Shown: positions 7,836-44,838, counted from the stretch's first letter. The stretch is 64,000 nt of DNA from Chiayiivirga flava (GCA_037190825.1 JBBCJS010000003.1:1-64000), one strand, 5' to 3'. The notes: generated by a model from the letters alone, not told the origin. Program-made: numbers and translations.

Positions 7836-8117
7836 GATCGGTTCCTGAGTTCGCCCTGGGATGCCGCGCCGTGGGCGCGGGCTCGCGCCTTGCCGGTTTC
7901 TGAACCGGCGAGGCGCTTGCTGGCATGCTCCCCCTCGGGGCCGGACCGGGTATTGCGCGATTTCCGCGTCGCCGCGCGGCGATCTGCACAGCGGCCCGAA
8001 AACCGGGTCGATAGACTCTTGACCGAGGCTTAACGGCCGTGGCCGGGACGCTTGCGCCCGTCACGAAAAAGTCCGACACCGGAAGCGCTCCGGAGACGAA
8101 AAGGGGAGAAAAGGATC

Positions 8118-8876
8118 ATGGCGAGCGAAGACGCGCTGCGCTGGCGCGACAGATTCATGGCGAGCGCGGCCTCGCCCTGGTACGTGGAGCGGTTGTTCGA
8201 CCGGCTCCCGGACATCGTTTTCTCGATCAAGGACAGGCTCGGGCGCTACGTCTCCATCAGCGAGACGGCGGCGATGCGTTGCGGCCTCAAGCACCGCCAG
8301 GACGCCATCGGCAAGACCGCGTTCGACCTCTTCCCCAAGCCGATGGCCGAGCGCTACACGCGCCAGGACGAGCGCCTGTTCCGCACCGGCAAGCCGATCA
8401 TCGACAACCTGGACCTCACCGTGTACCGCGACGGCAGCGCCGGCTGGTGCCTTTCCACCAAGGAGCCGCTGCGCGACGCGCGCGGGGAGATCATCGGGCT
8501 GGCCTGCATTTCCAAGGACCTGACCGAGCCCAGCCGCGGCGGCTTCATCGACAGCGCCTTCGCCGACACCATCGACTACCTGCTCGAACACATCGACGAA
8601 CCGCTGCGCATGGACGCGCTGGCGCACCGCGCCGGGCTGTCGCAGGCGCAGTTCGACCGGCGCATGAAGAAGATCTTCCAGCTCTCGGCCGGCCAGTACG
8701 TCATCAAGACCCGCATCGACCACGCCACCCGCCTGCTCGCCAGCACGCGCCTGCCGATCGCCGACATCGCCCAGCAGGCCGGCTTCTCCGACCAGAGCGC
8801 GTTCTCGCGCCAGTTCCGCCACGTCACCGGCTTCACGCCGAGGCAGTATCGGCAGTTGATGCAGGACGAGGCGTAG
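8118..8876 (+). CDS. AraC-family transcriptional regulator with N-terminal PAS-like sensor domain
   Basis: C-terminal AraC-type HTH ([33 protein letters not shown]); N-terminal PAS-like segment; ATG at 8118 preceded by aaggggagaaaagga RBS; the ORF-track start at 8052 is an upstream extension; divergent from collagenase-2. Confidence 0.85.
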
Positions 8877-11280: not shown

Positions 11281-14200
11281 TCATGACGAGGCACCCTTTG
11301 GCTTGCGGGGTTCCTTGCTGCGCGTATTCGCCGGCGAGTCGGATGGCGTGGCCGCCGGCCCCATCCGCCGTGCGATCTCGCGCAGGATCACCTGCAAGGC
11401 GTCGTGCTGGTCGGCGCGCTTGTGCATGCCGTCCACCAGCGGCTTGAAGCCCAGTTCCAGCGCGTTGCGCAGGCCGCCGAGCCACATCGCCGCATCGGTG
11501 CTGGTATCGCGGGAGAAGGTGCGGGCGAGTGCCTGCTCGCTGGCGATGCGTTCGAGCAGATCGATCAGGGCGGGCCAGTGCGTTGCTTCGTCCGCCGTTG
11601 CCGATGCGGGTGCGGCATCGGGCGAAGGCAGGCCGCGCTCGAGCGCGCGCACGCCGGCCACGAGGTCATGCAACTGCGCGACCACGCGCGTGCCCACGTC
11701 GGCATCGGCGCCGCCGATGGACTTGTTGCGGCGGAAGTCGGCCTTGATCTGTTCCCAGCGCGCGGCTTCGTCGTCGGTGAGCGTGCCGCGCAGTTCGGCC
11801 AGCTTGAGCAGGTTTTCTTCCGCGCCGGTGGTGAGCAGTTGCGATTCGCCGAGGTAGTGGTCGGCGATGAGCTGCTGCAATTCGGCCTCGTTCATCACCG
11901 CCGACACCTTTTCCGCCAGCTTGTTCATGTTGCGGTAGCTGCCTTGCAGGCGGAACGGCGGCTCGGTGCGGTAGGCGTCGGCCTGCGCGGCGCTGGCGAT
12001 GTATTGCTGGTTGACGCGGTAGACGATCTCGCGCACCGCGATCAGGCGCGCGAGGGTGCCGACGATCTCGTTGATCTCCGCGCCGCTGTAGTCGTGCCTG
12101 AGCGCGTTGGTGGAGACCTCGCGGCCCTGCGCCTTGTCCACCAGCAGGTAGAGATCGGCCATGTCGCGCGTGGCCAGCGGCGCGAGCACGGGGTTGGAGG
12201 TGAGGCTGTTCTCGATGTAGCTGAGCTTGAAGGAATCCTCCATGCCGCCGAGCACGTCGCCGAGGTTGTAGATGTCGGCACGGTTGGCGAGCATGTCGGG
12301 AATCCTGAACACCTCGCCGGACTCGGTATACGGATTGCCGGCCATGACCACGCAGAACTTCTTGCCGCGCATGTCGTAGGTCTTGGTGCGGCCGTTCCAC
12401 ACGCCCTCGATGCGGCGCGTGCCGTCGCACAGGGAGATGAACTTCTGCAGGAACTCCGGGTGCGTGTGCTGGATGTCGTCCACGTACAGCATCACGTTGC
12501 TGCCCATTTCCAGCGCGAGGTTGAGCTTCACCAGTTCCTGCCGCGCGGTGGCGTCGGGCGCCTGTGCCGGATCGAGCGAGCGCACCTCGTGGCCGAGCGC
12601 CGGGCCGTTGATCTTCATGAAGATCAGGCCCAGCCGGTTGGCCACGTATTCCATCAGCGTGGTCTTTCCGTAGCCGGGCGGGGAAATCATCATCAGCAGG
12701 CCCATCAGGTCGCTGCGCTTGTTTTCGCCCGCGGTGCCCATCTGCTTGGCGAGGTTGTCGCCGATCAGCGGCAGGTAGACGTCGTTGATGAGCCTGTTGC
12801 GCACGAACGAGGCCAGCGGGCGCGGCTTGAATTCCTCCAGCCGCAGCGCCTCGCGCTCCCGCACGAGCGCGTCGTGGCGCAGGCGTTGGAAATCCTGGAA
12901 ACCGGAAAGCCAGACGCGGCGGTGATCGGCCAGGCGCTGCATCAGGTCGAACAGGCGCAGGTTCAATGCGCCATCGACGATGCGCGGGTGTTCGCTCAAC
13001 AGGCCGTGTACGGATACGTCCAGATCGGCCTGCGAAACCCGGTGCGGCAGCGTTGGGCCGAGCAGCAGCAACGCAGCGGCCTCGGGAACGTAGGCTTTGA
13101 GCGATGCAAGTTCTGCCCGCGCGGAATCTTCCGTATTGCCCACGCCGTCGTTCCCGCGAAGGCGGGAACCCAGTGCCTTTGCGCCATCATTCGAAAAAGT
13201 CGCCGGGCTCCCGCCTTCGCGGGAGCGACGACGATCTTCGGCATCGTCCACCAGCGCGCGCAGCCACTGGCGCAGCAGGGCGTGGCGGGCGCCGTTGCCG
13301 TCCAGCGCTTCGAGCGTAGTGCTGAGTGTGTCCCAGCGCGGGCCGTCGAGTGTTGATTTCAGTGCGGTGGCCAGTTGCTGGGCGTAGCGGCTGAAGGCGA
13401 ACTGAGGATGTGGGGCGGAGAGTTCCTGTGCCAGATAGGCGGCTGCAGACGAAGCGAGTGCGGCATCGAAGGGTAGGGCGTGGTGCGCGGCCTGTGCGGC
13501 GATGACATCAGCGATGTTCTTGCGTAGCGTGGCGAGTGCGGCATCGTCATCGAACAACTCACGGATTTGCGCGGCATTGCGTGCCTGCGCCGGCCAGCGC
13601 GTGGCCTCGGGCGAATCGGCGAGCGCATCCCAGCACAACAAGGCCAGCGCGCGTGCTTCGGGTGAGTGAACCAGCGAACCGGCCGCATCGCGCAGCGGCG
13701 TCACCGCGCGCAGGATCAGCGCGGCATCGTGGTCGTGGATGCCTTTCTCGTAGCCTTCGCGGTAGCGCGGCGTGGCGAAGTCGCGCACCGCGCGGGCCAG
13801 TGCGTCCGGTTCCAGCGCCAGTTGCGCGAGGCGTTCGCGGGTGAAGCCTTCGGTGCTGCGGTCGGCGGCATCGAGCACGAGGCCGGCGAGGTATTCGGCG
13901 CGGGAAAGCTCGGGCGATTCGGATTCCAGCGCGGCCTGCCAGTACGGGCGCAGCGGCTCCAGCGCCGGGTCATTGAGTTGCGCGAAGTAATCGGTGCCGG
14001 TGAGATGCAGCGCCAGGCCATCGCCACGCGGAAGAATGGTCAGATCCAGTTCCTGCGTGTTGACCGAGAAGCGGTGACGCCCGAGGCGGATCAGGTTGCC
14101 GCCTTCCTCGAACAGTTCGCTCTTGTCGCGCAGCGCGCGCACGGCCTGGTCGCGCACGCCCTTGAGGCGCGCCTCCACGTCGTCGGCCTTGACGCTGTCC

Positions 14201-16695
14201 TTCAGATCACGCAGCCGGTTCGCCAGCTCGCGCAGTTTCAGGATCAGCGCATCGCCGGCGAAGAAGGCGTTGAGTTCGTCCGGGCCGGCGAAGCGCGCGG
14301 TGCGGCGCGGCAGGCCGTCGAGGATGCGGCGCGCGGCGTCGAACACCGATTGCGCCTTGCGCTGGCGTTCGTCGAGCAGCGCCTGCTTGTGCGCCTCGAA
14401 ACTTTCCAGCAGTTCCTCGCGCTTTTGCAGGATGTCGTCGAGGAACCGGCCGTGCTCGCCGAACTGGCTTTCCAGTTCCTCGAGCTGGATCAACAGGCGC
14501 GCGAGTTGTTCGTCGCAACGCTCCGGGTCCGTCGCCGCCGACAAGGCGCTCGCGATGGACTGGGAGAACAGCGCGAACTGCGCGCCGAACTGCGCCACCT
14601 GCTCGCCGGATCCCAATTGCCTGCGACGCTGCTCGGCGCGGGCGCGGGACTGGTTGAGGCGCGCGTACAGCTCGGCGATGGCTTCCACGATGGCGGTGCG
14701 CTGCGTGGCATCGTCCACGCGCAGCGTCGCCATCAGCTCGGAGAGCAGGTCGAGATCGGCGGCGAGCGCGGTGAGGCCGTCCAGCGGTTCGCGCAATGCG
14801 GCGACGGTGGCGGCCTGCTGCGCGGCGGTGTCCAGTTCGGCCAGGCGCGCGTCGAGCGGCTTGAGCGAAGCCGCATCGGCGAGGTAATCGCCCGTGGCGG
14901 TGCCGATGCGCTCGTTCGCGGCGACCAGTTCGGCTTCCATCGCATCGATGGCGGCCACCTCGATGTAGCGCAGTTCGCGGATCGTCAGCAGGTGCCCGCG
15001 CTGCGCCGAGATGGACTGCAACGCCGCCACGTAATCCTGCACGCGCTCGAAGCGGTCCGGATTGAGGCCGGTGAGCAGCGCCTTCTGCCTGGTCGTCGCC
15101 TCGCGCATCGCGCGGTCGGATTGCGCGCGGATGCTTTCGACTTTCTCGTATTCGTCCAGCACCGCCTCGCCGGTGGTGGCGATCTCGTGCAGCAGCGGCG
15201 CGAAGTCGCCGGCCTGCGCATCGGCGATCCAGTGGTGCGTGTCGAACATGCGGCGCGTGGCCTGCACCAGCAGGGTGTAGCGCTGCACCGAGACGGCATC
15301 GCTGTCGATCTCGTGCGCCAGCGACAGCAGGTCGGAAATGCCGCGAACGAGCTCGGCATTGCCGATGCGCCCGAGGAAGCCGGTGGCCGGCGGCTGGCGT
15401 GCGGCGTATTCCTCGAAACAGAACGGCGTCTGCCACACCTGCATCGGATGCACGCGCGTGGGCTCGGCGCTCTCGGCGCTGAAGATCACCATGCGCCCAT
15501 CTTCGAGTCGCGCGTAGCCGTGGCAGAGGATCGGCGGTTGTAGGCTGCGCTCGATCAGGTTGTAGGTGAACAGCGCGTTGCGCCCGGACACCGGCTCGTG
15601 GAACACGTACAGCACGTCCTCGCCGTTGGGCGAGCGGATCGCGCGCTTGAAGCGCATGCCGTCGAACTGCGTATCGAACTGGCGCGTCTCGCCGTTCTGC
15701 AGGAGATAGCCGCCGGGCCAGACGATGCCGTGGTCCTCGGGCAACTGGATCGCCGCCAGCCCCAGCGCGTCGATGCGCTGCACGCGGCGCGTCAGCGTGT
15801 TGTAGGCCAGGTGGCGCCACTGCTCCTCGCGGTACGGCAGCACGCGCAGCAGGATCAGGCTGCCGACGCGGGCGAATTCGATCTGCGCATCGTCGAGCGA
15901 TTGGGTGGCGTCCTGCACCGGCTCGCGGTAGATGCCGAGCCCGTCCTCGGTGTTGTTCTCGATCTTGATGGTGAGGTCGCCGCCGACGGTTTCCACGAAC
16001 ACCGTGTCCAGGATGTTCATGTGCGGATGGCGGCCGTTGACCACCATCTCGCGCGTGGTCGGCTGCCACTCGAAATCGTAGGGCGCGGGCAGCGCCACGT
16101 CGCGCTCGCCGCGGTTGTCGATGTAGCGCACTTCACTCCCGGATCCAGTCCGGGACAGGCTCTGTGGCGAAACGCTCCAGCGGAACACGCGGATGTCGGT
16201 CAATCGCTCGCCGATCTGGAAGCTCGCCAGCAGCTTCCCGTCGCGCACCATCAGTTGCAGCAGGCGGGTGTTCTTGTAGTAGGCGTAAAGCTCGCGGAAA
16301 TCCTGCGCGAAGCTGTCGATGGCAAGGAAGGTGCCTGCGATGTCCACCGGCGTCACGTCGTAGCCGTCCGGCGTTTCGACGAGGCGGTACAGCGAGAACA
16401 CGTCCTCGATCCGGGTTTCCTTCTTCAGCCCGATGAAGACGTTGTAGCCGAACAGCAGCAGGTCGCCCACCTGCACGATGTCGCGCGCCACGCAGTTGTG
16501 CTCGGTGCGCACCCGCAGCCGCCCGACGACTTCCAGCTTGCTGCTGGCGAACTGCTCCAGCCGCCGCGCATTGAGCGCATTGGCCAGCCCACGCAGCCGC
16601 GCGCCCTGTTCGGCCAGGCGCCTGTGCAGAACCTCGTAGGCGCCGCCGGAAGCGACGGCCTGGTCGATGGCGGTGGTGTCGGTGGAGTCGGTCAT
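11281..16695 (-). CDS. Giant (1804 aa) coiled-coil protein with a single dynein/MoxR-like AAA+ (AAA_5-type) ATPase core in its C-terminal third; function unknown
   Basis: Uninterrupted 5.4-kb ORF; Walker A ISPPGYGKTTLMEYV, Walker B VMLYVDDIQH, plus KFCVVMAGNPY (AAA_5-like); long N-terminal coiled-coil-rich region; 43 bp downstream of the NYN gene in the flotillin gene string. Confidence 0.85.
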   Translation of the reverse strand: MTDSTDTTAIDQAVASGGAYEVLHRRLAEQGARLRGLANALNARRLEQFASSKLEVVGRLRVRTEHNCVARDIVQVGDLLLFGYNVFIGLKKETRIEDVFSLYRLVETPDGYDVTPVDIAGTFLAIDSFAQDFRELYAYYKNTRLLQLMVRDGKLLASFQIGERLTDIRVFRWSVSPQSLSRTGSGSEVRYIDNRGERDVALPAPYDFEWQPTTREMVVNGRHPHMNILDTVFVETVGGDLTIKIENNTEDGLGIYREPVQDATQSLDDAQIEFARVGSLILLRVLPYREEQWRHLAYNTLTRRVQRIDALGLAAIQLPEDHGIVWPGGYLLQNGETRQFDTQFDGMRFKRAIRSPNGEDVLYVFHEPVSGRNALFTYNLIERSLQPPILCHGYARLEDGRMVIFSAESAEPTRVHPMQVWQTPFCFEEYAARQPPATGFLGRIGNAELVRGISDLLSLAHEIDSDAVSVQRYTLLVQATRRMFDTHHWIADAQAGDFAPLLHEIATTGEAVLDEYEKVESIRAQSDRAMREATTRQKALLTGLNPDRFERVQDYVAALQSISAQRGHLLTIRELRYIEVAAIDAMEAELVAANERIGTATGDYLADAASLKPLDARLAELDTAAQQAATVAALREPLDGLTALAADLDLLSELMATLRVDDATQRTAIVEAIAELYARLNQSRARAEQRRRQLGSGEQVAQFGAQFALFSQSIASALSAATDPERCDEQLARLLIQLEELESQFGEHGRFLDDILQKREELLESFEAHKQALLDERQRKAQSVFDAARRILDGLPRRTARFAGPDELNAFFAGDALILKLRELANRLRDLKDSVKADDVEARLKGVRDQAVRALRDKSELFEEGGNLIRLGRHRFSVNTQELDLTILPRGDGLALHLTGTDYFAQLNDPALEPLRPYWQAALESESPELSRAEYLAGLVLDAADRSTEGFTRERLAQLALEPDALARAVRDFATPRYREGYEKGIHDHDAALILRAVTPLRDAAGSLVHSPEARALALLCWDALADSPEATRWPAQARNAAQIRELFDDDAALATLRKNIADVIAAQAAHHALPFDAALASSAAAYLAQELSAPHPQFAFSRYAQQLATALKSTLDGPRWDTLSTTLEALDGNGARHALLRQWLRALVDDAEDRRRSREGGSPATFSNDGAKALGSRLRGNDGVGNTEDSARAELASLKAYVPEAAALLLLGPTLPHRVSQADLDVSVHGLLSEHPRIVDGALNLRLFDLMQRLADHRRVWLSGFQDFQRLRHDALVREREALRLEEFKPRPLASFVRNRLINDVYLPLIGDNLAKQMGTAGENKRSDLMGLLMMISPPGYGKTTLMEYVANRLGLIFMKINGPALGHEVRSLDPAQAPDATARQELVKLNLALEMGSNVMLYVDDIQHTHPEFLQKFISLCDGTRRIEGVWNGRTKTYDMRGKKFCVVMAGNPYTESGEVFRIPDMLANRADIYNLGDVLGGMEDSFKLSYIENSLTSNPVLAPLATRDMADLYLLVDKAQGREVSTNALRHDYSGAEINEIVGTLARLIAVREIVYRVNQQYIASAAQADAYRTEPPFRLQGSYRNMNKLAEKVSAVMNEAELQQLIADHYLGESQLLTTGAEENLLKLAELRGTLTDDEAARWEQIKADFRRNKSIGGADADVGTRVVAQLHDLVAGVRALERGLPSPDAAPASATADEATHWPALIDLLERIASEQALARTFSRDTSTDAAMWLGGLRNALELGFKPLVDGMHKRADQHDALQVILREIARRMGPAATPSDSPANTRSKEPRKPKGASS
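13145..13235. repeat. REP doublet (two inverted REP hairpins) inserted in-frame inside the giant AAA+ gene
   Basis: Hairpins gttcccgcgaaggcgggaac (13150-13169) and gggctcccgccttcgcgggagc (13205-13226) in inverted orientation; translated in frame as ...GSRLRGNDGVGNTEDSARAELASL..., an odd-composition segment; the opposite frame gives the typical REP translations VVAPAKAGARR / WVPAFAGTT. Confidence 0.6.
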
Positions 16696-16737
16696 GGGGC
16701 TTATGAAATTGGAAGTTTTGGGTGTGCTGATGGATCG

Positions 16738-17532
16738 TTACTTTGCGCGAACATAGAGCGCCTTCTGTGTTTGTCCATCTGGCGTCCGCTCTTCGATCTG
16801 GAAGATGTCAGGCCTGGACCGAACAAGATCCGAGAGCTTCTTGTGGCCATAGAGACGGGAGTCGAAATCAGGCTGAACCTTTGTCAAGTAACTACCGAAC
16901 GGACCGAGGTGTACCCAGCCAGATTCATCGCTGGACTGTTCCAATGCATCAAGAAGGAGCTCCTTGGGAAATGGTGCGGCTTTGCGTTGAGGCTCTTCTG
17001 CCTTTTGTGGCGCAGGCTGACTTGCCTTTCCGGTTGTGTCGGCGATGGCTGGCGTGCTGCTTGGGCGCAGTACTTCGGTGAAGGTGAACTTGTGACATGC
17101 GTTACGGAAGGCTTCTGGGGTCTTTTCTTCGCCAAACCCGAGAACCGTCAAGCCCTCCTCGCGGATGCGAACGGCCAATCCTGTGAAGTCGCTATCGCTC
17201 GAAACAAGGCAAAAGCCATCGAACTTCCTTGTGTAAAGCAAGTCCATGGCGTCGATGATGAGCGCGCTGTCGGTTGCATTCTTTCCTGTTGTGTAAGCGA
17301 ACTGCTGTACTGGCTTGATGGAATGTTTCTGGAGAACCTTCTTCCAGGACGAACTCTGCGGCGAGGTGAAGTCGCCATAGATGCGCTTGACGGTGGCCTC
17401 ACCGAATCTGGCGATCTCCGTCAGCAACCCTTCGATTACTGAGGCCTGCGCATTGTCTGCGTCAATCAGAACGGCCAGGCGGATGCTGGGTTCCTCGGAT
17501 TCGATCTTTGCTACCAATCGCGGTGATGCCAT
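16738..17532 (-). CDS. NYN (PIN-like nuclease) domain protein with C-terminal OST-HTH/LOTUS domain (LabA-like)
   Basis: VLIDADNA ... GKNATDSALIIDAMDLLY ... FCLVSSDSDFTGLAVRIRE (NYN acidic residues); C-terminal KELLLDALEQSSDESGWVHLGPFGSYL (OST-HTH); about 55% GC against a ~70% background. Confidence 0.85.
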   Translation of the reverse strand: MASPRLVAKIESEEPSIRLAVLIDADNAQASVIEGLLTEIARFGEATVKRIYGDFTSPQSSSWKKVLQKHSIKPVQQFAYTTGKNATDSALIIDAMDLLYTRKFDGFCLVSSDSDFTGLAVRIREEGLTVLGFGEEKTPEAFRNACHKFTFTEVLRPSSTPAIADTTGKASQPAPQKAEEPQRKAAPFPKELLLDALEQSSDESGWVHLGPFGSYLTKVQPDFDSRLYGHKKLSDLVRSRPDIFQIEERTPDGQTQKALYVRAK

Positions 17533-17681
17533 GGGAATCGTCTCGATCTGGTTCGGGGGGCGGCATAGGTCAGGGTGAGCGGAGTGAATTCCGGCGCTGT
17601 GGACTGTGGTGAATCAGAAGCGCCCCTCATCCGCCCTCCGGGCACCTTCTCCCCGCACGCGGGGAGAAGGGGAGGGAGAGG

Positions 17682-19670
17682 CTACGGTGCGGGTGGCGGG
17701 TTGCTGGGTTCCGAAGCGATGCCTTTGGCCCCCAGCAGCTTCTGGATCAGATCGCCCACCAGCGGGCTCTTGCCGGCCACGCCTTCGATCGCCTTGCCCA
17801 CCGAGAGGCTCTTGGCGAAGGAGTCGAAGAACGCGCCTTCGCCGCCCACGATGTCGATCTTGGCCTTGGACAGCGCGGCGGAAAGCACTTCGGCCTGTTC
17901 GCGGGCGATGTCCTTGCCGGCGGCGATCTGCGCGATGGCCTGCTCGAAGTTCTTTTCCAGCTGCATGCGGAACTCTTCGTGCGCGCGGGCGTCGTCGCTG
18001 AGGGCTGCCAGGGCCGCGAACTTCTCGGTGAGGCCTTCGGCTTCGGCGTGCAGTTTCTGGCGCAGCACGTCGGCTTCGGAGATGCCCACGTCGCGCGTGG
18101 CCTTGCCCTTGGCGGCGCCGAGCTGTTCTTCGCCGCGCGCCTGCGCGGTGAGGTTTTCTTCCAGCACCTTCGCTTCGGCCAGGCCCTTGTCCTGCGTGCC
18201 GCGTGCTTCGGCGGCGAGCTTTTCGGCGATGACCTTGGCTTCCGCCAGGCCTTCCTTCTCCATCGCCGCCGCGGTGATTTCGCGCACGCGCGCATCGGCC
18301 AGGCCCGGCGCGGCGCGCTCGGCCTCGATGCCTTCGGCCAGCTTCTTCTTGGCCTCGGCCTGCTTGGCGGCGGCTTCCAGTTCCGCCTGCGCCAGCACGG
18401 TGATTTCCACGGACTTGTGGCGGGATTTGGTTTCGTCGGCTTCGGCCTGCTTGACCTGCTTGACCAGTTCTTCCTCGGCGGCGGCCTGGGCTTCCAGGAT
18501 GCGGACCTGCTTCAGGCGCTCGGCCTCGGAGACTTCCCGCACTTCCTTGATGCGCTCCTCTTCCTGCGCGACGGTCTTTTCGACGGCCACGCGCTCGCGG
18601 ATCACGTTGGCGATGTCCTTGCGCTGCTCTTCCAGCGCCTTCTCCTTCTCGATGCGCTGCAATTCCACTTCGCGCTCGCGCGCGACCACTTCCAGTTCCT
18701 TCGCCCGCGAGACTTTCTCCACCTCGATGACGACGGCGCGCTGGCGGTTCTGCTCGGCCACTTCCACTTCGCGCAGGCGGTTCTGCTCGCGGATGTCCAG
18801 TTGCTCCTGCGTGGCGATGCGGGCCTGTTCGGCCTTCAGGCGCTCTTCTTCCTGCACCTTCTGCGTCTCGGCCTGCTCGCGCGCCTGGATGGTTTCGATC
18901 TCGCGCTTCTGGCGCGCCTCGGCGTCGGCCTGCTGGCGTTCGAGCGCGAGCAGCGCCTCTTTCGTCTCGACGTTCTTCTTGGTGATGGCCAGTTGCTCGT
19001 TGCGCTCCAGTTCGTTGGTGATGACGTTCTGGGCGGCGGTCAGCTCGGTGATCTTGCGGATGCCTTCGGCGTCCAGGATGTTGTGCGGGTCGAGCGAGGC
19101 CTTGGGCGTCTGCTCGAGGTAGTCGATGGCGACGTCTTCGAGGATGTAGCCGTTCAGGTCGTTGCCGATCACTTCCACGATGCGGTCGCGGAACTCCTGG
19201 CGGTTCTCGAACAGCTTGACGAAGTCGATCTGCTTGCCGACGGTCTTGAGCGCCTCGGAGAACTTGGCGTTGAACAGTTCGTTGACGGCGGCCTTGTCCG
19301 AGGCGCGTTCCACGCCGATGGCCTTGGCGACCTTGAGCACGTCCTGCTGGGTTTCGTTGACGCGCAGGTAGAAGGCCACGGTGATGTCCGCGCGCATGTT
19401 GTCGCGGCAGATCAGCCCGTCCTTGCCACGCCGGTCCACTTCCAGCGTGATCAGGGAGATCTTCATGAACTCCTTCTTGTAGATCACCGGGTACACCAGC
19501 GCGCCGGTGAAATGCACCTTGGGCGTGGAGGACATGTCGTTGACGATCAGCGCGGTGCCCTGCGGGACCTTGATGTAGAAGGCCTTGAACAGGATGAACA
19601 GGCAGAAGATGAACAGCAGTGCGGCACCGACGACCATTGCGCCGACAATCAGGGTGTGGGGTATGTCCAT
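17682..19670 (-). CDS. yqiK: Flotillin-family SPFH/band-7 protein (YqiK-like)
   Basis: N-terminal TM helix, SPFH domain, long E/A/K/R-rich coiled-coil, C-terminal glycine-rich tail; typical flotillin architecture. Confidence 0.9.
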   Translation of the reverse strand: MDIPHTLIVGAMVVGAALLFIFCLFILFKAFYIKVPQGTALIVNDMSSTPKVHFTGALVYPVIYKKEFMKISLITLEVDRRGKDGLICRDNMRADITVAFYLRVNETQQDVLKVAKAIGVERASDKAAVNELFNAKFSEALKTVGKQIDFVKLFENRQEFRDRIVEVIGNDLNGYILEDVAIDYLEQTPKASLDPHNILDAEGIRKITELTAAQNVITNELERNEQLAITKKNVETKEALLALERQQADAEARQKREIETIQAREQAETQKVQEEERLKAEQARIATQEQLDIREQNRLREVEVAEQNRQRAVVIEVEKVSRAKELEVVAREREVELQRIEKEKALEEQRKDIANVIRERVAVEKTVAQEEERIKEVREVSEAERLKQVRILEAQAAAEEELVKQVKQAEADETKSRHKSVEITVLAQAELEAAAKQAEAKKKLAEGIEAERAAPGLADARVREITAAAMEKEGLAEAKVIAEKLAAEARGTQDKGLAEAKVLEENLTAQARGEEQLGAAKGKATRDVGISEADVLRQKLHAEAEGLTEKFAALAALSDDARAHEEFRMQLEKNFEQAIAQIAAGKDIAREQAEVLSAALSKAKIDIVGGEGAFFDSFAKSLSVGKAIEGVAGKSPLVGDLIQKLLGAKGIASEPSNPPPAP

Positions 19671-19737
19671 GAGTGACTCCAGAGGTTGGCCGGGACGTGC
19701 CGGGTGGAACGAGAAAGAAGATGGGTTGAAAGCGGGG

Positions 19738-20349
19738 TCAGGCGCGGATGACGCGATAGGCGTTCTGGTCGGGCAGGTATTCCACCAGCACCACGCGCTC
19801 GCCGCGCAGGAATTCTTCGTCGTGGCTGCGCACCTTGAGGATCAGGCCGGCGCCGCCATCGTCCAGATCGACTTCGCCCTGCGATGGCCCGACCCTGGGG
19901 CTGCGCACGATGGCTTCGCGGCCCAGGAACGAGGCGGCTTCGGGGCCGGCGAGGTTGGCGAACAACGGGCGCAGCGGATGCAGCGCCAGCCCGGTGAGCG
20001 GTACGGCGACGACGAACACCGCCAGCACCGTCGCCGCGCCCAGCGCGGTGCGCAGCAGGCCGGGCGAAAGCTGGCGCAGCAGCAGGAAGTCGGCGAAATA
20101 GCTCATCACCCACGCGAAAAGACAGATGCCCGATACGATCAACGCGATTGGGAGTCCATCGAGGCCAAATTTCAGCAACGCCCCGGAAAGCCCGCCCAGT
20201 TCGCCTTCGCCGCCGACCCCGCCCAGATCGAGCAGATCGGTATCAAACAGACCAAGAAGGGTCATCAGCCAGTAGCCCACCGCTATGGCCAGCAATACGC
20301 TGAAAACGACGGTGGGGAAGGACAGGGCGATGTCGAGAAAGGTCTGCAT
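19738..20349 (-). CDS. yqiJ: YqiJ/NfeD-like inner-membrane protein (flotillin operon partner)
   Basis: 203 aa; multiple TM helices followed by a C-terminal OB-fold-like soluble domain; 68 bp upstream of yqiK on the same strand. Confidence 0.75.
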   Translation of the reverse strand: MQTFLDIALSFPTVVFSVLLAIAVGYWLMTLLGLFDTDLLDLGGVGGEGELGGLSGALLKFGLDGLPIALIVSGICLFAWVMSYFADFLLLRQLSPGLLRTALGAATVLAVFVVAVPLTGLALHPLRPLFANLAGPEAASFLGREAIVRSPRVGPSQGEVDLDDGGAGLILKVRSHDEEFLRGERVVLVEYLPDQNAYRVIRA

Positions 20350-20471
20350 ACGGCCTCGGTTGCGGGTCGATGCCCACAGGGACGAAGGAAAGGCGGAATG
20401 GTGACGCAGAACTTACCCGCAAGTTCGATTTCCGTCATTTCTGCGAACGCGTACTACTGTCCGGGAAACCA

Positions 20472-20504: not shown

Positions 20505-20957
20505 TCAGAGGGGCAATGGTTGGCGTATCCATTCGGCCAGCGCCTGTGCCGGTGTCAGGATGCGAATCCCGTCGATGGGCGGAAGGACGAGCAGGTCGGT
20601 GTCGCCGCTCACCAGCAGCGGTGCGTCTGATGCCAGCGCGGTACGGATGAAGGCATCGTCGTCCGGGTCACGGCACCAGGCGTGCGCTGCCAGATCGGAA
20701 GGAATCCTGACCCAGTCGGCGCTGGCGTTGAGGTCGTGCAGCAGGCGCTGGCGCAGGTCGATGTCGAGATAGCGGTCGAACTTCGGCCGCCACAGGCGGG
20801 ATTCAAGCTCGGCGAAGGTTTCGGCGGAAAACACCGGGCGCCGATGGGCGAGGACGTATCGCGCCACGTGCTTCGCCGTGCCGCCGGCCGAAAGCGCGGC
20901 ACTGATCCAGACGTTGGTGTCCAATACCACCCGCTGTCGGGCGATGTCAGCTTTCAT
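20505..20957 (-). CDS. PIN-domain toxin (VapC-like) of a type II TA module
   Basis: 150 aa; VVLDTNVWISA ... SGDTDLL PIN acidic motifs; overlaps the upstream antitoxin gene by 11 nt; paralogue of the 56194..56607 product. Confidence 0.85.
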   Translation of the reverse strand: MKADIARQRVVLDTNVWISAALSAGGTAKHVARYVLAHRRPVFSAETFAELESRLWRPKFDRYLDIDLRQRLLHDLNASADWVRIPSDLAAHAWCRDPDDDAFIRTALASDAPLLVSGDTDLLVLPPIDGIRILTPAQALAEWIRQPLPL

Positions 20958-21198
20958 CGGCCAGCAGGCGTTCCAGCTCGTCTTCGGTCAGGCCGGCGCG
21001 GGCGGCGGCGGCGGCGGATTCGTCCAGGGTCTGCCGCAGGCGGTCGGCATAGAAAGCGCGCATGGCCTCGTAATCCTGCGCGCTGACCATCACGCCGACC
21101 ACGCGCTCGTGGCGCATCACCCGTACAGGCTCGCGTTGCGCCCGGTCGAGGAACTCGCCGAAACGGGTCTTGGCTTCGTTGGCGGTGTAGGTCTGCAT
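20947..21198 (-). CDS. Phd/YefM-family antitoxin
   Basis: 84 aa (MQTYTANEAKTRFGEFLDRAQREPVRVMRHERVVGVMVSAQDYEAMRAF...); start refined to the ATG at 21196-21198; translationally coupled to the PIN gene. Confidence 0.8.
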   Translation of the reverse strand: MQTYTANEAKTRFGEFLDRAQREPVRVMRHERVVGVMVSAQDYEAMRAFYADRLRQTLDESAAAAARAGLTEDELERLLADES

Positions 21199-21277: not shown

Positions 21278-24200
21278 TCACGGCCCGACGCGGAACTGCC
21301 CCACGTCGATGCGCTGCTTGCCGGTTTCCAGCCGCCGCGTGGTGGCCTGGCGGGTGGGTTCGGCGCTGCCGAAGGCGGTCTGGAATTCCAGTTGCACCGT
21401 GACCGGGCCGGTGAGGGACTGGCGGCGGTCGCCGAAGTAGTGGGCCTGCACGCGGTAGGTGCCGGGCAGGGGGCGGGCGATGGTGAAGGCTTCCGGGCCA
21501 TAGCCCTGGGTGAAATCGCGGCTGACCTGGCCGCCGCTCCTGCTGCGCGGTTGGGCGTAGTAGACGGCTTCGCCGGTCGGGTCGATCACCCACAGGTCGA
21601 TGTCGGTGTTGTCCGCGTCCCAGGTCAGCACCACGCGCAGGCCGACTTCCACCGGCGGCATCAGTTCGGGCGGGATGCCGAGTTTTGCGATTTCCAGAGT
21701 CGGGCGGGCGGCAGCGACCAGGGCGGTGAGTTCGTGCAGGGCGATCAGGTCGATGTCCGGGAAGCGGCCGTGCCAGTCGTGCGTGGCGACGTGCCACAGG
21801 AGCGCGATGGCGCGTTCGGTCTGCGGTTGCGGCAGGCGGGACAGCGCGAGCGCGAGGTCGCGATGGCTTTGCGGTTCCTCGGGGCGCTGGGCGAGCGCGT
21901 CCTGGAACGTGCGCAGCGCCAGATCGGGGCGGTCCCACTGCGCCAGCCGGTAGCCGAATACGCGCAGGAGCGCCGTGTTCTCGTCGCCGATTTCGGCCAG
22001 GTTGGAGAGGATGCGCAGCGCCAGTGCGGGTTGTCTGGCCTCGTTGCGGAAGAAGTCGGCGGCGTCGAGGAAGAACGAGGGCGTGTCGGCGTGCTCGGCG
22101 CGCAATTGCAGGTAGGCGGCGTAGGGGTCTTTCGCGGCGCGCAGGGTTTTCAGGTACGGCGTGTCCGGGTTCCAGCCGCTCAACTGGATATCGGCGGTGA
22201 GTGCGGGGGCGGCGGCCTCTTCGAGGTCCGCGGCGGTGATGCGTGAGCCGGTGACTTCGATGCGGTCGAGTGTGGCGGATTCGTTCCGAGCGCTGCGCTG
22301 CCGGGCGGGTGCAGGAGGTGCGGGCGGCGGGGGCGCCGCCGATTCTGCAAGGTGGGCAGGCTCGGACGCGGGCGCGCTTCCTGACAGCGGGTGCAGTTCA
22401 AGGCCAGCCTGTTGCTCCTGCATGGATTCGGGCGCCAGGTCGAGGCGGCGCTGGCGCAGCGCGTCCAGCCGCAGCATCAAGGCGGTGGCTTCGCGCTCCC
22501 ATGCCGCGCGCGAGGCGGCTTCGGCGCCGTCCTTCGACCAGCGCCCGGCCAGTGCGCGGCCTTGCCTGGCGATGGCGTCGATATCGCGGCGCGAGGCCGT
22601 CAGGGTTTTTTCCGGCAGTCCGGCCGATGGCGCGAGGCGTTGCCACGATGCGGCTTCGGCCTCGGCGGCGGGCACGAGCAGGGTTTCCAGCCACGGATGG
22701 CGCTTGGCGTGCCATTCGCGGAATTCGCGCCAGCGCGTGGCGAGCGAGGCGATGCGCGCATCGCGGTCGATGTCGGTGCCGGCGGGTTTGGGCTGGCCGG
22801 CGCGCAGGCGGTCGTATTGCGCGCGCAGCTCGGCCTCCTTCGGTGCGACGCCGTAGCGCGCGTAGTCCTCGATGCGGTCGAGCACCAGCAGCGAGGTTTG
22901 CGAGGTGACGACACCGTGGCGCACCGCCAGTTCGGTGATGGCGGCGGTGTCGGGAGTGGCCTGCGCCTGCATCTGCGCGATGCGCGCCTGCGCCACCGCG
23001 CGCCAGACCGAATCGGCGAGCGCGCCGGTGGCGGGCGTGGCGTCGCCGACGGTCACTTCACGTTCCACCTTCGCCGAACCATCGCCGGTGCCGAAGGCAA
23101 GGCGCAGCGTGGCCTTGCCGGTGCAGCGCGCGCTCAGGGTCAGCGCCGTGCCGACGGGCTGCGGGGCGAGGGGGGAGATATCGGTGCAAGAGTTGCCCGG
23201 CTCGATGGAAAGCAGTCGCCAGCCGGTGGCCGACAGCGCGGCGCCGGCCTGTGCCGCCGACATGCGGGTGAGATCGAGCACTTCGCCGTTGCCGCGCCGC
23301 GCGATGTCGGCCAGGCGCGCGTGATCGGCGCGTTGCGCGGCGTGCAGTGCGAACAGGCGCGATGGCGCGCCGGTGAAATCGATGCGGCCGCTGCCGAAGG
23401 TGTCCAGCCCGTCGCCGATGACGAGGGCGGCGTCGGCTCTGGCGATGGCGCGGAAGTCGATGGCGCCGTAGTTGCTCGCGCCATCCAGCGGCAGTGTTTC
23501 CAGCGCATCGAGAAGCGCGGACGCATCGCCGCCGCGCACGCGGAAACGGCGCGCGGGTTCGGCCGCGTCGCGGAAGGCGATCAGGTCGACCTCGACGCTG
23601 CCGAGCGTTGCGAGCCACGCCGCCAGCGCCTCGCGTTCGCGCGCCAGGTCGCGGTCGCGCGCGCTGCCGGAGGCATCGAAGAACAGGGCGATGCGATCCG
23701 GTTTTTTCGGTGCCGGCAGAGTGTCCGGGCGGCCGCTGTCGATACGGGCCAGGATGGCGCGCTGCGCCGGTTCCAGCGCATCGGGCGCTTCCAGCGCGGC
23801 CATGTCGCCGGCCTGCTTGGGCACGCGGAAGCTCAGTTCGCGCTGCGGCGCGATGTCCTCGCGCGAAAACTCCGCGCGCCAGACGGTGGCGACGCGCTCG
23901 AAACGCAATTGCGCATCCGGCGAATCGGCGGCCAGTTCCGGCGCGGGCGCATCGACGGGCGCTTCGGCTTTCACCGAGAAGCGCCGCACCTTCTCGCGGA
24001 ACTGCAACGGCAGCAGATACCGCCAGTGCGCGCCGGCATCGTCCATCGCCTGCTCGAACTGAAGCGCGATGCGCTTGCTGCCGTGCGCGGGAATCGGATA
24101 CAGCCGGGTGCGGAACACGTTGCCGCGGGTCAGCTCGGCCAGGCCCGGATCGACCTGCTGGCGGGTGATGTCCTCGAACGCCACGCGCGCGGTCTGCCTG

Positions 24201-24505: not shown

Positions 24506-24649
24506 CGGGAGGCTTCCTGTGGCGTGGACAGTGCGGGCCTTGCAACGTGGCGGTGGGCGGAGTGGGGTTGGGGCGCCGCGTCCGGCCGTCGAAAACGAAG
24601 ACGGCACCGCCAAGCGCGCGGTGCCGTCGTGGCATCGATGCCGCAAGGA

Positions 24650-44752: not shown

Positions 44753-44838
44753 TCGCGTAGTTCCTTGCTTGATTTGAGGTTGCCCCTTCTCCAACACCGA
44801 CGCCACCTATGGCTTGGCGGTGGTGCGCCGCTCAGACA

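What the first reader, a model, noticed from the sequence alone, without database searches (positions are those of the whole stretch)
11281..20349. Flotillin operon (yqiJ-yqiK) extended by a NYN/OST-HTH gene and a giant 1804-aa AAA_5-type ATPase
Four same-strand genes run with short gaps (68, 150 and 43 bp): NfeD-like YqiJ, flotillin YqiK, a NYN nuclease with OST-HTH, then a 5.4-kb ORF. The giant product has roughly 1200 aa of coiled coil followed by a single dynein/MoxR-like AAA+ core (GYGKTT; VMLYVDD; VVMAGNPY). This architecture (huge coiled-coil scaffold, single AAA_5 motor, flotillin linkage) matches no familiar named family and suggests a membrane-microdomain-associated mechanochemical or scaffolding system. 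The function of such giant AAA proteins next to flotillins is, to my knowledge, undescribed.
Basis: partly seen in the sequence, partly recalled or inferred. Interest (0 to 1): 0.55.

Follow-up and report, generated by a model that had tools for sequence, protein, structure and literature searches.

The report
Known flotillin–giant ATPase operon, foreign RNase inserted
The flotillin genes and the giant ATPase gene really do form a unit that is conserved across bacterial phyla, but this unit was already described in 2024, and the nuclease gene in the middle is a recent foreign insertion seen in only a few close relatives.

Summary
The four genes exist as described. They lie on the minus strand, with gaps of 67, 149 and 42 bp.

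The giant protein is not an orphan. It matches Pfam DUF3686 (E=2e-199) and DUF7902, NCBI names it "DNA repair ATPase", and it has more than 6,500 homologues. The Pseudomonas aeruginosa homologue is PA3728/BacE.

It is not 1,200 aa of coiled coil. The model shows a β-propeller, a helical stalk, a small β domain, a helical bundle and one AAA+ module of RuvB/MoxR type.

The order yqiJ-like → flotillin-like → giant ATPase held in 78 of 81 genome loci from several phyla; the other three are cut off upstream. It also held in 50 of 63 metagenome loci.

This linkage is already published. Ravi et al. 2024 describe the operon, and Wallart et al. 2024 show by RT-PCR that bacABCDEF is one transcript.

The NYN/OST-HTH gene is foreign: GC3 is 0.63 against 0.87–0.89 for its neighbours. 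The nearest relatives (92–94% identity) lack it. Only two other contigs carry it, and elsewhere the family sits in mobile islands.

It occupies a spacer that takes many kinds of insert in other lineages. The function is still untested; ATP-driven remodelling of the flotillin scaffold is the best guess.

The parts
19738..20349 (-). YqiJ/YuaF-like small membrane protein (203 aa): three hydrophobic segments followed by a soluble C-terminal domain of about 70 aa. It is the first gene of the conserved triad.
   Evidence: ORF. Hydrophobic segments at 2-37, 54-91 and 96-127. Homologues sit directly upstream of the flotillin gene in 75 of the 81 genome loci. No Pfam or PDB sequence match.
17682..19670 (-). 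Flotillin-like SPFH protein (662 aa): N-terminal membrane anchor, Band_7 domain, then a long Glu/Ala-rich helical region.
   Evidence: Band_7 at 32 bits on residues 34-182 when the N-terminus is scanned alone; Flot domain only E=0.09. Hydrophobic segment at 1-37. Present upstream of the giant gene in 78 of 81 genome loci.
17645..17670 (.). GC-rich palindrome (REP-like hairpin, 11-bp stem) in the spacer between the flotillin and NYN genes. It has no T-run.
   Evidence: Palindrome found once in the window (one site, matched on both strands), with 0 expected by chance. It forms the dominant stem of the spacer fold. It is not flagged as a terminator. REP-like repeats occupy the same spacer in relatives L099 and L111.
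16738..17532 (-). NYN (LabA/DUF88-type PIN-like RNase) + OST-HTH/LOTUS protein, 264 aa. It is a foreign insertion, not part of the conserved operon.
   Evidence: Pfam NYN E=5e-38 and OST-HTH E=4e-19. The OST-HTH part matches PDB 2kpm at E=3e-32. GC is 54.6% and GC3 0.63, against 0.87-0.89 for the neighbours. It is absent from the 81 genome loci and from the nearest relatives. It occupies the same slot only in L088/L098 and L089.
11281..16695 (-). Giant cytosolic ATPase of the DUF3686/DUF7902 family, 1804 aa (NCBI name 'DNA repair ATPase'; P. aeruginosa PA3728/BacE).
   Evidence: Pfam. More than 6,500 homologues that align end to end. No hydrophobic segment.
15232..16596 (-). DUF3686 domain (residues 34-488): an N-terminal helix followed by a β-propeller (about 55-422).
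   Evidence: PF12458 E=2.4e-199. The AlphaFold model has pLDDT mostly 85-93, dipping to about 55-67 over residues 231-270, and is all-β over 55-422. Foldseek matches are β-propellers.
14617..14868 (-). DUF7902 (residues 610-693), lying within the long helical stalk (440-860).
   Evidence: PF25472 E=1.9e-24. Long helices in the model.
13975..14091 (-). Small conserved β domain (residues 869-907) carrying the invariant residues G872, H874, F876, V878 and N879.
   Evidence: Four strands in the model. G872 and F876 are invariant in the 28-sequence alignment; H874, V878 and N879 are invariant in the 41-sequence alignment.
12256..12723 (-). AAA+ α/β core (residues about 1325-1480): Walker A GYGKTT (K1344), Walker B hhhhDD (D1406, D1407), a pre-sensor-1 β-hairpin (1428-1441) and sensor-1 N1454.
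   Evidence: Invariant columns. Model. Foldseek matches to RuvB (E=1e-5), NorQ/CbbQ (TM 0.55-0.59), ClpB NBD2 and MCM.
20401..20426 (-). Candidate promoter of ECF/σE type (GAACTT-N16-TCAC), about 52 bp upstream of the yqiJ-like start. Low confidence.
   Evidence: Read from the sequence. The motif is conserved in relatives L083 and L084, and its -10 half also in L082 and L087. Not tested. No σ70-like site lies in this spacer.

Best explanation
Shown:
- The locus is the 'abbreviated' form of a published, widely conserved membrane-stress operon. It lacks the adjacent PspA/DUF2170 pair and the phospholipase D gene.
- Its core is three genes inherited together across phyla: a YqiJ-like 3-TM protein, a flotillin-like SPFH scaffold, and a giant soluble protein. 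The giant protein is built from a β-propeller, a helical stalk and a single AAA+ module.
- The NYN/OST-HTH gene is not part of this machine. It is a recently acquired stand-alone RNase gene of foreign composition.
- It landed in the spacer between the flotillin and ATPase genes. That spacer takes many kinds of insert in other lineages: REP repeats, transposases, toxin-antitoxin pairs and small accessory genes.

Inferred:
- The three core proteins work as one membrane-associated complex. The flotillin-like protein, by analogy with other SPFH proteins, would form an oligomeric assembly on the cytoplasmic face of the inner membrane together with the YqiJ-like partner.
- The giant protein docks on that assembly through its propeller or stalk. 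It uses ATP binding and hydrolysis in a ring of AAA+ modules to assemble, disassemble or reshape the scaffold, or to load and extract client proteins.
- Where a PspA polymer is encoded next door, it may act on that too. This would parallel FtsH inside HflK/C cages or Vps4 acting on ESCRT-III.
- The NYN gene is probably transcribed by read-through from the operon promoter.
For: Identity of the giant protein:
- PF12458 E=2.4e-199, PF25472 E=1.9e-24, AAA/AAA_5 just above cut-off.
- More than 6,500 homologues of 1,600-1,900 aa, named 'DNA repair ATPase'.

Linkage:
- yqiJ → flotillin → giant on one strand in 78 of 81 genome loci from Gamma-, Beta- and Zetaproteobacteria, Myxococcota, Actinomycetota and a Clostridia MAG. 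The three exceptions are contigs cut off upstream.
- The same order holds in 50 of 63 metagenome loci.
- The median flotillin-to-giant gap is about 90 bp. Four loci have overlapping stop and start codons.
- PspA is adjacent in 41 of the 81 loci, DUF2170 in about 39 and PLD in 17. None of the three is in this window.

Literature:
- Ravi et al. 2024 describe the operon and its abbreviated form.
- RT-PCR shows bacABCDEF is one transcript, and all the Bac proteins rise 6- to 13-fold in a bacA mutant. The P. aeruginosa locus has the same gene order.

ATPase:
- Walker A, Walker B, sensor 1 and several arginines are invariant.
- The fold is AAA+ with a pre-sensor-1 hairpin. The closest structures are RuvB, NorQ/CbbQ, ClpB-NBD2 and MCM.
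- The protein has no membrane segment.

NYN as an insertion:
- GC3 is 0.63 against 0.87-0.89 for the neighbours.
- It is absent in relatives with 92%, 88%, 85% and 78% giant-protein identity. It is also absent in relatives that are 93-94% identical over the N-terminal 400 aa.
- It is present in only two other contigs.
- Homologues at 78% identity or less sit beside integrases, IS110, HicAB, ParE or Prim-Pol genes.
- Anantharaman et al. 2010 found no conserved neighbourhood for this family.

Permissive spacer: different cargo sits in the same slot elsewhere.

No terminator-like site in the spacers on the coding strand.
Against: - No experiment links the ATPase physically to flotillin. The mechanism rests on gene order and on analogy.
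- Walker B is DD rather than DE, and the position of pore loop 1 carries an invariant His instead of an aromatic residue. Classical substrate threading is therefore doubtful, and slow, switch-like ATP use is possible.
- Deleting the P. aeruginosa flotillin gene gave only about 20% less biofilm, so phenotypes are mild under the conditions tested.
- A few relatives lack flotillin within 1.5-6 kb upstream: L140, L130, L131 and L157.
- A second, unrelated PIN-like gene (PIN7) sits in the same slot in relative L083. This could mean the slot is not neutral.
- The model of the C-terminal part is only moderate in quality (pLDDT 70).
Confidence: 0.7

Rival explanations
1. One reading: all four genes, NYN/OST-HTH included, form one functional and previously undescribed system. 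In it, a flotillin microdomain, an RNase and a giant motor act together.
For: The genes share a strand and have short gaps, with no terminator-like site between them. The same NYN gene lies in the same slot in two other contigs. A different PIN-like + HTH gene fills the slot in L083.
Against: NYN is absent from the 81 genome loci. Among the 63 metagenome loci it appears only once, on the same contig as L088. The closest relatives lack it. Its composition is foreign, and elsewhere the family is carried on mobile islands. The three-gene core is already published.
Confidence: 0.08
2. Defence reading: the flotillin/AAA+ module senses envelope damage, for example from phage. The variable slot carries interchangeable nuclease effectors (NYN, PIN7, PD-(D/E)XK), which would make this an abortive-infection system.
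For: Nuclease-type cargo sits in the slot in several lineages: NYN here, PIN7 in L083, PDDEXK_2 in L033 and a PDDEXK_5-like gene in L065. The operon is linked to the phage-shock protein PspA in about half of the loci. A Phd/PIN_3 toxin-antitoxin pair sits just upstream in this window.
Against: Most loci have an empty slot of about 90 bp. Other cargo is clearly selfish or unrelated: a RAYT-like transposase, REP repeats, HipA, Zn-ribbon and TerB-like proteins. The PDDEXK_2 genes are transposase-family proteins. PADLOC gives no match except a weak coiled-coil hit to LmuB at E=1e-3. The triad behaves as a core chromosomal gene set, with 3,222 identical-cluster members in P. aeruginosa, not as an island gene.
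Confidence: 0.06
3. The database name is right: the giant protein is an SMC/Rad50-like DNA repair ATPase, and its position next to flotillin is incidental.
For: NCBI and Pfam call the family an 'ATPase involved in DNA repair'. There is a weak LmuB (SMC-like) match in the helical region (E=1e-3). RuvB is the top structural match for the ATPase core. recJ lies nearby in P. aeruginosa.
Against: The ATPase is an AAA+ module, not an ABC/SMC head. The LmuB match covers only the helical stalk. The RuvB match is at 14-17% identity and is shared with MoxR, ClpB and MCM. The linkage to flotillin and YqiJ is near-universal across phyla. No DNA-binding domain was detected. No paper in the library gives evidence for a repair role.
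Confidence: 0.03
4. The giant protein is a MoxR-type chaperone that matures or inserts a specific client protein together with a VWA partner. Flotillin serves only as its platform.
For: AAA_5 match at 23.5 bits. The best TM-scores are to the MoxR ATPases NorQ and CbbQ (0.55-0.59). A VIT-domain gene lies upstream in this window.
Against: No VWA partner is conserved. The VIT gene is replaced by unrelated genes in L085 and L087 and is absent in other lineages. Walker B is DD, not DE. The protein is about six times the size of a MoxR ATPase, with a propeller and a stalk that MoxR lacks.
Confidence: 0.08

Closest known systems
PSP-associated flotillin operon of Ravi et al. 2024 (mSystems; PMC11237479), which is the bacABCDEF operon of Pseudomonas aeruginosa (PA3732-PA3727; Macé 2008 PMC2587700; Wallart 2024 PMC10948618)
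   Same: It has the same three core genes in the same order: the YqiJ-like gene (BacC), the flotillin-like gene (BacD) and the DUF3686 AAA+ giant (BacE). The giant is 64% identical over 99% of its length. [quoted passage not shown]
   Different: This window has no DUF2170/CesT-like gene, no PspA gene and no phospholipase D gene anywhere in its 64 kb. It has an extra NYN/OST-HTH gene between the flotillin and ATPase genes. No convincing σ54 site lies upstream; a candidate ECF-type motif is there instead.
E. coli yqiJ-yqiK and B. subtilis yuaF-floT (an NfeD-type gene plus a flotillin gene)
   Same: A small multi-pass membrane protein gene followed by a flotillin-type SPFH gene. Ravi et al. use YqiJ/YuaF as the prototype of the first gene.
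   Different: From my own knowledge, those two operons have no giant ATPase gene. Sequence similarity here is too low for Pfam NfeD or Flot to reach threshold. A 2026 study states that the P. aeruginosa counterpart (PaFlo3) has no E. coli orthologue. The names yqiJ and yqiK therefore describe the type of gene, not orthology.
HflK/C-FtsH (an SPFH cage enclosing an AAA+ machine) and Vps4-ESCRT-III (an AAA+ machine that disassembles a membrane-remodelling polymer)
   Same: Both are working analogies only: an SPFH or PspA-type membrane scaffold genetically coupled to an AAA+ ATPase. Ravi et al. draw the ESCRT/Vps4 parallel.
   Different: The giant has no protease domain, no membrane anchor and no MIT domain. 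Its AAA+ core is of the RuvB/MoxR/ClpB-D2 structural type rather than the classical clade. It lacks an aromatic pore loop, and its Walker B is DD.
Bacterial LK-nuclease (DUF88/NYN) + OST-HTH family (Anantharaman, Zhang and Aravind 2010; PMC2848206). NE0665 (PDB 2kpm) gives the OST-HTH structure.
   Same: The same two-domain architecture, with strong Pfam matches. The OST-HTH part matches 2kpm at E=3e-32. Homologues are 72-88% identical across distant phyla. The family is described as sporadic, stand-alone and without a conserved neighbourhood.
   Different: Nothing in the protein itself differs. Only its position is unusual: inside a flotillin/ATPase operon, which is restricted to this window and two related contigs.

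Membership tests
DUF3686/DUF7902 giant AAA+ ATPase family ('DNA repair ATPase', BacE/PA3728) | N-terminal PF12458 (DUF3686) domain | tested here: met
   E=2.4e-199, covering profile positions 2-448 of 448.
DUF3686/DUF7902 giant AAA+ ATPase family ('DNA repair ATPase', BacE/PA3728) | PF25472 (DUF7902) in the helical region | tested here: met
   E=1.9e-24 on residues 610-693.
DUF3686/DUF7902 giant AAA+ ATPase family ('DNA repair ATPase', BacE/PA3728) | A single C-terminal AAA+ module with the family's invariant motifs, and a full length of about 1,600-1,900 aa | tested here: met
   SPPGYGKTT, DDIQH, GNPYTE and QGSYRNM are all on invariant columns. The protein is 1804 aa and aligns over 98-100% of its length with homologues.
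DUF3686/DUF7902 giant AAA+ ATPase family ('DNA repair ATPase', BacE/PA3728) | Encoded directly downstream of a yqiJ-like and flotillin-like gene pair | tested here: met
   The order is met here, with one inserted gene. It holds in 78 of 81 genome loci and 50 of 63 metagenome loci.
PSP/Bac operon (full six-gene form) | A DUF2170 (CesT/Tir-like) gene and a PspA/IM30 gene upstream | tested here: not met
   Profiles built from 40 loci find no PspA or DUF2170 gene anywhere in the window. A Phd/PIN_3 pair and a VIT-domain gene lie upstream instead.
PSP/Bac operon (full six-gene form) | A phospholipase D (HKD) gene downstream of the ATPase gene | tested here: not met
   No PLD match in the window. 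The downstream gene is an epimerase-like protein with a TAT signal.
Flotillin-type SPFH protein | An N-terminal membrane anchor plus an SPFH/Band_7 domain | tested here: met
   Hydrophobic segment at 1-37. Band_7 scores 32 bits against a cut-off of 23.6, but only when residues 1-226 are scanned alone. The full-length scan gives nothing.
Flotillin-type SPFH protein | A C-terminal flotillin (PF15975) domain | tested here: inconclusive
   E=0.092, 13.3 bits against a cut-off of 27. Ravi et al. assign a flotillin domain to the family.
NfeD / YqiJ-YuaF family | NfeD domain (PF01957), or sequence similarity to solved NfeD/YuaF domains | tested here: inconclusive
   No Pfam match for this protein or for 19 homologues. 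No PDB match with a 20-sequence profile. The 3-TM plus soluble-tail layout fits, and published work labels the P. aeruginosa homologue a 'short NfeD'.
NYN/LabA + OST-HTH stand-alone RNase family | An NYN (PF01936) domain followed by OST-HTH (PF12872) | tested here: met
   E=5e-38 and 3.6e-19. Match to 2kpm.
NYN/LabA + OST-HTH stand-alone RNase family | RNase activity | not testable with these tools
   The acidic motifs (DADN, GKNATD, SSDSDF) can be read in the sequence. No assay was possible.
MoxR-type AAA+ (AAA_5) chaperones | A protein of about 300 aa with a DE Walker B and a conserved VWA-domain partner | tested here: not met
   The fold is similar (TM 0.55-0.59 to NorQ/CbbQ) and AAA_5 scores 23.5 bits. 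Against membership: Walker B is DD, the protein is 1804 aa, and no VWA partner is conserved.
SMC/Rad50/SbcC-type DNA repair ATPases | An ABC-type ATPase head split by a coiled coil | tested here: not met
   There is one contiguous AAA+ module and no ABC head. The only SMC-like signal is a weak LmuB match (E=1e-3) in the helical region.

The most novel reading that the evidence does not exclude
The spacer between the flotillin and ATPase genes is not just a permissive landing site. It is a cargo slot that places interchangeable PIN-like RNases under the control of an envelope-stress operon: NYN/OST-HTH here, and a PIN7 gene with an HTH-like C-terminal tail in a sister strain. Membrane damage, for example from phage, would then trigger RNA degradation. 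In these strains the flotillin/AAA+ module would serve as the sensor arm of an abortive-infection-like system.
Probability: 0.07. Interest if true: 0.6.

Novelty: new member of a known kind. Interest (0 to 1): 0.3.

Why it matters
What bacterial flotillins actually do is still unsettled. A giant AAA+ ATPase travels with one flotillin family in nearly every genome that has it. That makes the ATPase a concrete handle for the problem: mutate its Walker A motif, or image the complex. This point has already been made in print, however, and this window adds only one more example, in the short form without PspA.

The locus-specific addition is modest. The spacer between the flotillin and ATPase genes is a hot spot where foreign genes settle without breaking the operon. 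Two unrelated PIN-like nuclease genes occupy it in sister strains.

There is also a practical lesson for annotation. The database name 'DNA repair ATPase' has no support and should not be passed on.

Tried and rejected
- Full-length Pfam scans of the flotillin-like and YqiJ-like proteins gave nothing, even at E=10. Only the isolated N-terminus of the flotillin gene matched Band_7.
- NCBIfam has no family-level model for any of the four proteins; only far sub-threshold RuvB and CDC48 matches appeared.
- PADLOC gave no defence-system match, only a weak coiled-coil hit to LmuB.
- PDB sequence searches found nothing for the full-length flotillin, its N-terminus or the YqiJ profile. For the ATPase they matched only the Walker A stretch of p97-like proteins.
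- The literature search for 'DUF3686' returned no papers. Papers that mention PA3728 only list it among mutated genes.
- No convincing σ54 promoter lies upstream of the yqiJ-like gene; the best matches carry 4 mismatches and the spacing is not conserved in relatives.
- No intrinsic terminator lies between the genes on the coding strand. The terminator-like hits in the region number no more than shuffled sequence gives (7 against 8.3 expected), and they lie inside coding sequence or on the other strand.
- A degenerate DNA pattern from the 5' end of the ATPase gene found nothing in the metagenome contigs.
- The idea that a VWA partner (the upstream VIT-domain gene) belongs to the system was rejected, because that neighbour is not conserved.
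- The nuclease-slot idea was weakened by finding transposases, REP repeats, toxin-antitoxin pairs, and Zn-ribbon and TerB-like genes in the same slot.


Full report
**The observation**

The window is GC-rich (about 68%). Four consecutive ORFs lie on the minus strand:
- 19738-20349 (203 aa)
- 17682-19670 (662 aa)
- 16738-17532 (264 aa)
- 11281-16695 (1804 aa)

The spacers are 67, 149 and 42 bp. Three of the four genes have the high third-position GC typical of real genes in this genome: 0.82, 0.89 and 0.87. The NYN gene has only 0.63, with 54.6% GC overall.

**What the proteins are**

The third protein is a clear NYN + OST-HTH protein (E=5e-38 and 4e-19). Its C-terminal part matches PDB 2kpm, which the OST-HTH paper identifies as Nitrosomonas NE0665.

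The giant protein is not an orphan:
- Residues 34-488 match Pfam DUF3686, 'ATPase involved in DNA repair', at E=2.4e-199.
- Residues 610-693 match DUF7902.
- Residues 1334-1457 match AAA and AAA_5, just above their cut-offs.

The full-length protein matches nothing in Pfam, even at E=10. Residues 1-226 alone match Band_7 at 32 bits, and the Flot domain is sub-threshold.

The first gene has no Pfam, NCBIfam or PDB match, even with a profile of 20 homologues. It has three hydrophobic segments and a soluble tail. It is homologous to PA3730, the gene at that position in the P. aeruginosa operon.

**Architecture of the giant protein**

The two AlphaFold models were built on 41-sequence alignments.

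N-terminal 1,190 residues (mean pLDDT 78):
- a helix at 19-49
- an all-β region at 55-422, with pLDDT mostly 85-93 and a dip to about 55-67 over residues 231-270
- long helices at 440-860
- a four-stranded β domain at 869-907, carrying invariant residues
- a helical bundle at 913-1159

Foldseek matches for this part are β-propellers, and proteins built as a propeller plus an α-solenoid: Nup155, IFT-A, Elp1 and Vps18. The global TM-scores are very low, so only the propeller call is safe.

C-terminal 655 residues (pLDDT 70): an AAA+ α/β core with a β-hairpin before sensor 1, followed by a helical lid.

The closest solved structures to the core are RuvB (E=1e-5), the MoxR-type ATPases NorQ and CbbQ (target TM 0.55-0.59), ClpB NBD2/Skd3 and MCM. 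Identity to these top matches is 12-17%.

So 'about 1200 aa of coiled coil' is wrong, while 'MoxR-like core' is a fair description of the fold.

Across 28 diverse homologues the following are invariant:
- Walker A: GYGKTT, with K1344
- Walker B: D1406-D1407
- sensor 1: N1454
- R1427 and R1472
- the QGSYRNM motif

Walker B is DD, not DE. From my own memory, not tested here, DnaA has the same DDIQ motif and is a slow, switch-like ATPase. The pore-loop-1 position carries an invariant His rather than an aromatic residue. The protein has no hydrophobic segment.

**How widespread the family is, and whether the flotillin linkage is real**

- The protein has more than 6,500 homologues, typically named 'DNA repair ATPase'.
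- Its N-terminal 700 residues match 889 clusters at the 50% identity level. The complete proteins among them are mostly 1,600-1,900 aa.
- A scan of one genome per species found at least 588 species with a relative. The best 80 loci were fetched with 10-kb flanks.

I then searched all ORFs of these loci, plus the P. aeruginosa locus, with the window proteins and the P. aeruginosa neighbours. Profiles built from the first hits were used for a second pass.

- The order yqiJ-like → flotillin-like → giant, on one strand, is present in 78 of 81 loci. The three exceptions are contigs that end within 360 bp upstream of the giant gene.
- The loci span Gamma-, Beta- and Zetaproteobacteria, Myxococcota, Actinomycetota and a Clostridia MAG.
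- The median flotillin-to-giant gap is about 90 bp. Four loci have overlapping stop and start codons.
- A second scan of metagenome contigs gave 63 loci, and 50 show the same order. Most of the rest are short fragments.
- Genuine exceptions are few. L140 has an HD-domain gene upstream. L130, L131 and L157 have no flotillin gene within 6 kb. In L132, a relative of L130 and L131, flotillin lies 5.2 kb upstream, behind an inserted block.

**It is already described**

The P. aeruginosa homologue is 64% identical over 99% of its length and stands for 3,222 member sequences. It sits in the order DUF2170 – PspA – YqiJ-like – flotillin-like – giant – PLD, upstream of yaeQ, recJ and an M4-peptidase gene that I take to be lasB. 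From that gene order I identify these six genes as PA3732 to PA3727.

- Macé et al. 2008 named PA3729-PA3732 the biofilm-associated cluster, bac.
- Wallart et al. 2024 showed by RT-PCR that six genes, bacA to bacF, form one operon. These include PA14_16190 (bacE, the giant) and PA14_16200 (bacF). BacB to BacF all rise 6- to 13-fold in a bacA mutant.
- Ravi et al. [quoted passage not shown] They note that abbreviated operons with only flotillin, YqiJ and sometimes the ATPase are more widely distributed. They propose ATP-dependent membrane remodelling by analogy with Vps4/ESCRT-III.
- A 2026 survey of P. aeruginosa SPFH proteins calls the flotillin PaFlo3. It finds no E. coli orthologue for it, and only about 20% less biofilm in the deletion mutant.

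This window carries the abbreviated form. No PspA, DUF2170 or PLD gene occurs anywhere in its 64 kb. In the survey, PspA was adjacent in 41 of 81 loci and PLD in 17.

**The NYN/OST-HTH gene is a recent foreign insertion**

- It is absent from all 81 genome loci.
- It is absent from relatives whose giant protein is 92% (L086), 88% (L087), 85% (L082) and 78% (L085) identical.
- It is absent from the metagenome relatives that are 94% and 93% identical over the N-terminal 400 aa, L096 and L097.
- It is present, 86% identical and with the same 43-bp gap to the ATPase gene, in only two other contigs. These are L088 (re-fetched as L098) and L089, whose giants are 84-88% identical to this one.
- The family is very large: 8,000 proteins reached E≤1e-10, which is the search's candidate limit. 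The 120 best are 72-88% identical to this one and come from bacteria as distant as Desulfomicrobium, a cyanobacterium, Aeromonas and Accumulibacter.
- Four relatives of 74-78% identity were checked. All sit beside integrases, IS110, HicAB, ParE or Prim-Pol genes, not beside flotillin.
- The 2010 paper that defined the architecture found no conserved neighbourhood and proposed a stand-alone RNA-degrading enzyme.

**The spacer is a hot spot**

In other lineages the same flotillin-to-ATPase slot holds:
- a different PIN-like gene (PIN7 plus an HTH-like tail, only 25% identical to the NYN protein) in L083
- a 465-bp low-GC filler in L084
- a TerB-like protein of about 80 aa in Pseudomonas and some Lysobacter
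- a Zn-ribbon protein of about 180 aa in Burkholderiales and others
- two PDDEXK_2 transposase-family genes (L033)
- a PD-(D/E)XK-like gene (L065)
- a RAYT-like transposase (L135)
- REP-like repeats (L099, L111)
- a 5-kb block with HipA, AIM24 and an M48 peptidase (L130-L132)
- toxin-antitoxin pairs (L157)

In this window the spacer upstream of NYN carries a GC-rich palindrome at 17645-17670. A Phd/PIN_3 toxin-antitoxin pair has been inserted just upstream of the yqiJ-like gene. It is absent from L082-L084, where the VIT-domain gene directly precedes the operon.

The simplest reading is that these spacers tolerate mobile DNA. Two unrelated PIN-like genes in sister strains are notable, but the rest of the cargo is too mixed to call the slot a nuclease slot.

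**Expression**

- No terminator-like site lies in any of the three spacers on the coding strand. The count for the whole region is no higher than in shuffled sequence.
- About 100 bp upstream of the yqiJ-like start are conserved among close relatives.
- That stretch contains GAACTT-N16-TCAC at 20426-20401. This resembles ECF/σE-type promoters; the resemblance is my own reading and is untested.
- No convincing σ54 site was found.
- A weak σ70-like match inside the 3' end of NYN (16777-16750) could drive the ATPase gene.

**How it most likely works**

Shown:
- a three-gene unit inherited together across phyla
- frequent stop/start overlap between the flotillin and ATPase genes
- co-transcription and co-regulation in P. 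aeruginosa
- a soluble giant protein with a propeller, a stalk and an AAA+ module whose nucleotide-binding motifs are conserved

Inferred:
- The flotillin-like protein and its YqiJ-like partner form an oligomeric scaffold on the inner membrane.
- The giant protein docks on that scaffold and uses ATP to assemble, disassemble or reshape it. Where PspA is present, it may act on PspA polymers too. Alternatively it may load or extract clients.
- The DD Walker B and the non-aromatic pore loop argue against classical threading. They favour a slower, switch-like or clamp-like action.

I put about 0.9 on the identity and linkage statements, and about 0.35 on the remodelling mechanism.

The name 'DNA repair ATPase' has no support. 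The module is AAA+, not SMC-like. The only SMC-like signal is a weak coiled-coil match, and no paper in the library gives evidence for a repair role.

**Verdict**

The flotillin linkage is one of the most consistent gene-order signals one could ask for.

The NYN gene does not extend the operon in any conserved sense. It is a passenger.

The function of the system is still untested, which keeps some interest. This window adds a new member of a known kind, plus a small observation about an insertion hot spot.

Noticed in passing
window 20505-21198 (minus strand): A type II toxin-antitoxin pair lies immediately upstream of the yqiJ-like gene. The antitoxin is Phd/YefM-type (20947-21198, PF02604, E=6e-12). 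The toxin is PIN_3 (20505-20957, E=1e-18), and the two genes overlap by 11 nt. The pair is absent from relatives L082-L084, where the VIT-domain gene directly precedes the operon. This is a second foreign insertion at the locus, and it also carries a PIN-like domain.
   Followed up: partly
window 17645-17670: A GC-rich palindrome (CCTTCTCCCCGC GTGC GGGGAGAAGG) lies between the flotillin and NYN genes. It occurs only once in the window (one site, matched on both strands). It resembles the REP-like repeats that fill the same spacer in relatives L099 and L111, and a RAYT-like transposase sits in that slot in L135.
   Followed up: partly
window 20401-20426 (minus strand): GAACTT-N16-TCAC lies about 52 bp upstream of the yqiJ-like start and is conserved in L083 and L084. 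It looks like an ECF/σE-type envelope-stress promoter, not the σ54 promoter reported for the P. aeruginosa bac operon. Untested.
   Followed up: partly
L083:5308-5988: In a strain whose giant ATPase is 88% identical to this one, the same flotillin-to-ATPase slot holds a different PIN-like gene: PIN7 (E=3e-25) with a C-terminal HTH-like tail. It is only 25% identical to the NYN protein here.
   Followed up: partly
L004:9604-9843, L007, L014, L020, L060, L126-L129, L141; L051, L055, L064, L132, L138, L144, L150: Two small proteins recur in the flotillin-to-ATPase spacer of whole lineages. One is a TerB-like protein of about 80 aa (Pseudomonas, some Lysobacter). The other is a protein of about 180 aa with Zn_ribbon_TFIIB motifs (Burkholderiales and marine Gammaproteobacteria). 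Their recurrence across genera suggests they are real accessory subunits of the system. The literature I read here does not mention them.
   Followed up: partly
L130:3898-5699, L132:3743-5545: In a sediment lineage the giant ATPase gene is preceded by an AIM24-like gene and an M48-type (HExxH) peptidase gene. The flotillin gene lies 5 kb further upstream, and L130 also carries a HipA-like toxin pair. This may be a variant operon with a protease.
   Followed up: no
window 21278-24646 (minus strand): A large protein with a VIT domain and DUF2135/YfaP_C (1122 aa) lies upstream of the locus. It is conserved at that position in the closest relatives (L082-L084) but not in L085 or L087. Its function was not examined.
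   Followed up: no
window 44001-49000: This stretch has markedly lower GC (0.58-0.60) than the rest of the window (0.64-0.74). It may be a horizontally acquired island.
   Followed up: no
window 4110-7835 (minus strand): A secreted M9 collagenase (1241 aa) with three PPC pre-peptidase domains. The divergent neighbour at 8052-8876 is a PAS/AraC regulator. The same regulator-collagenase pairing appears in relative L084.
   Followed up: no
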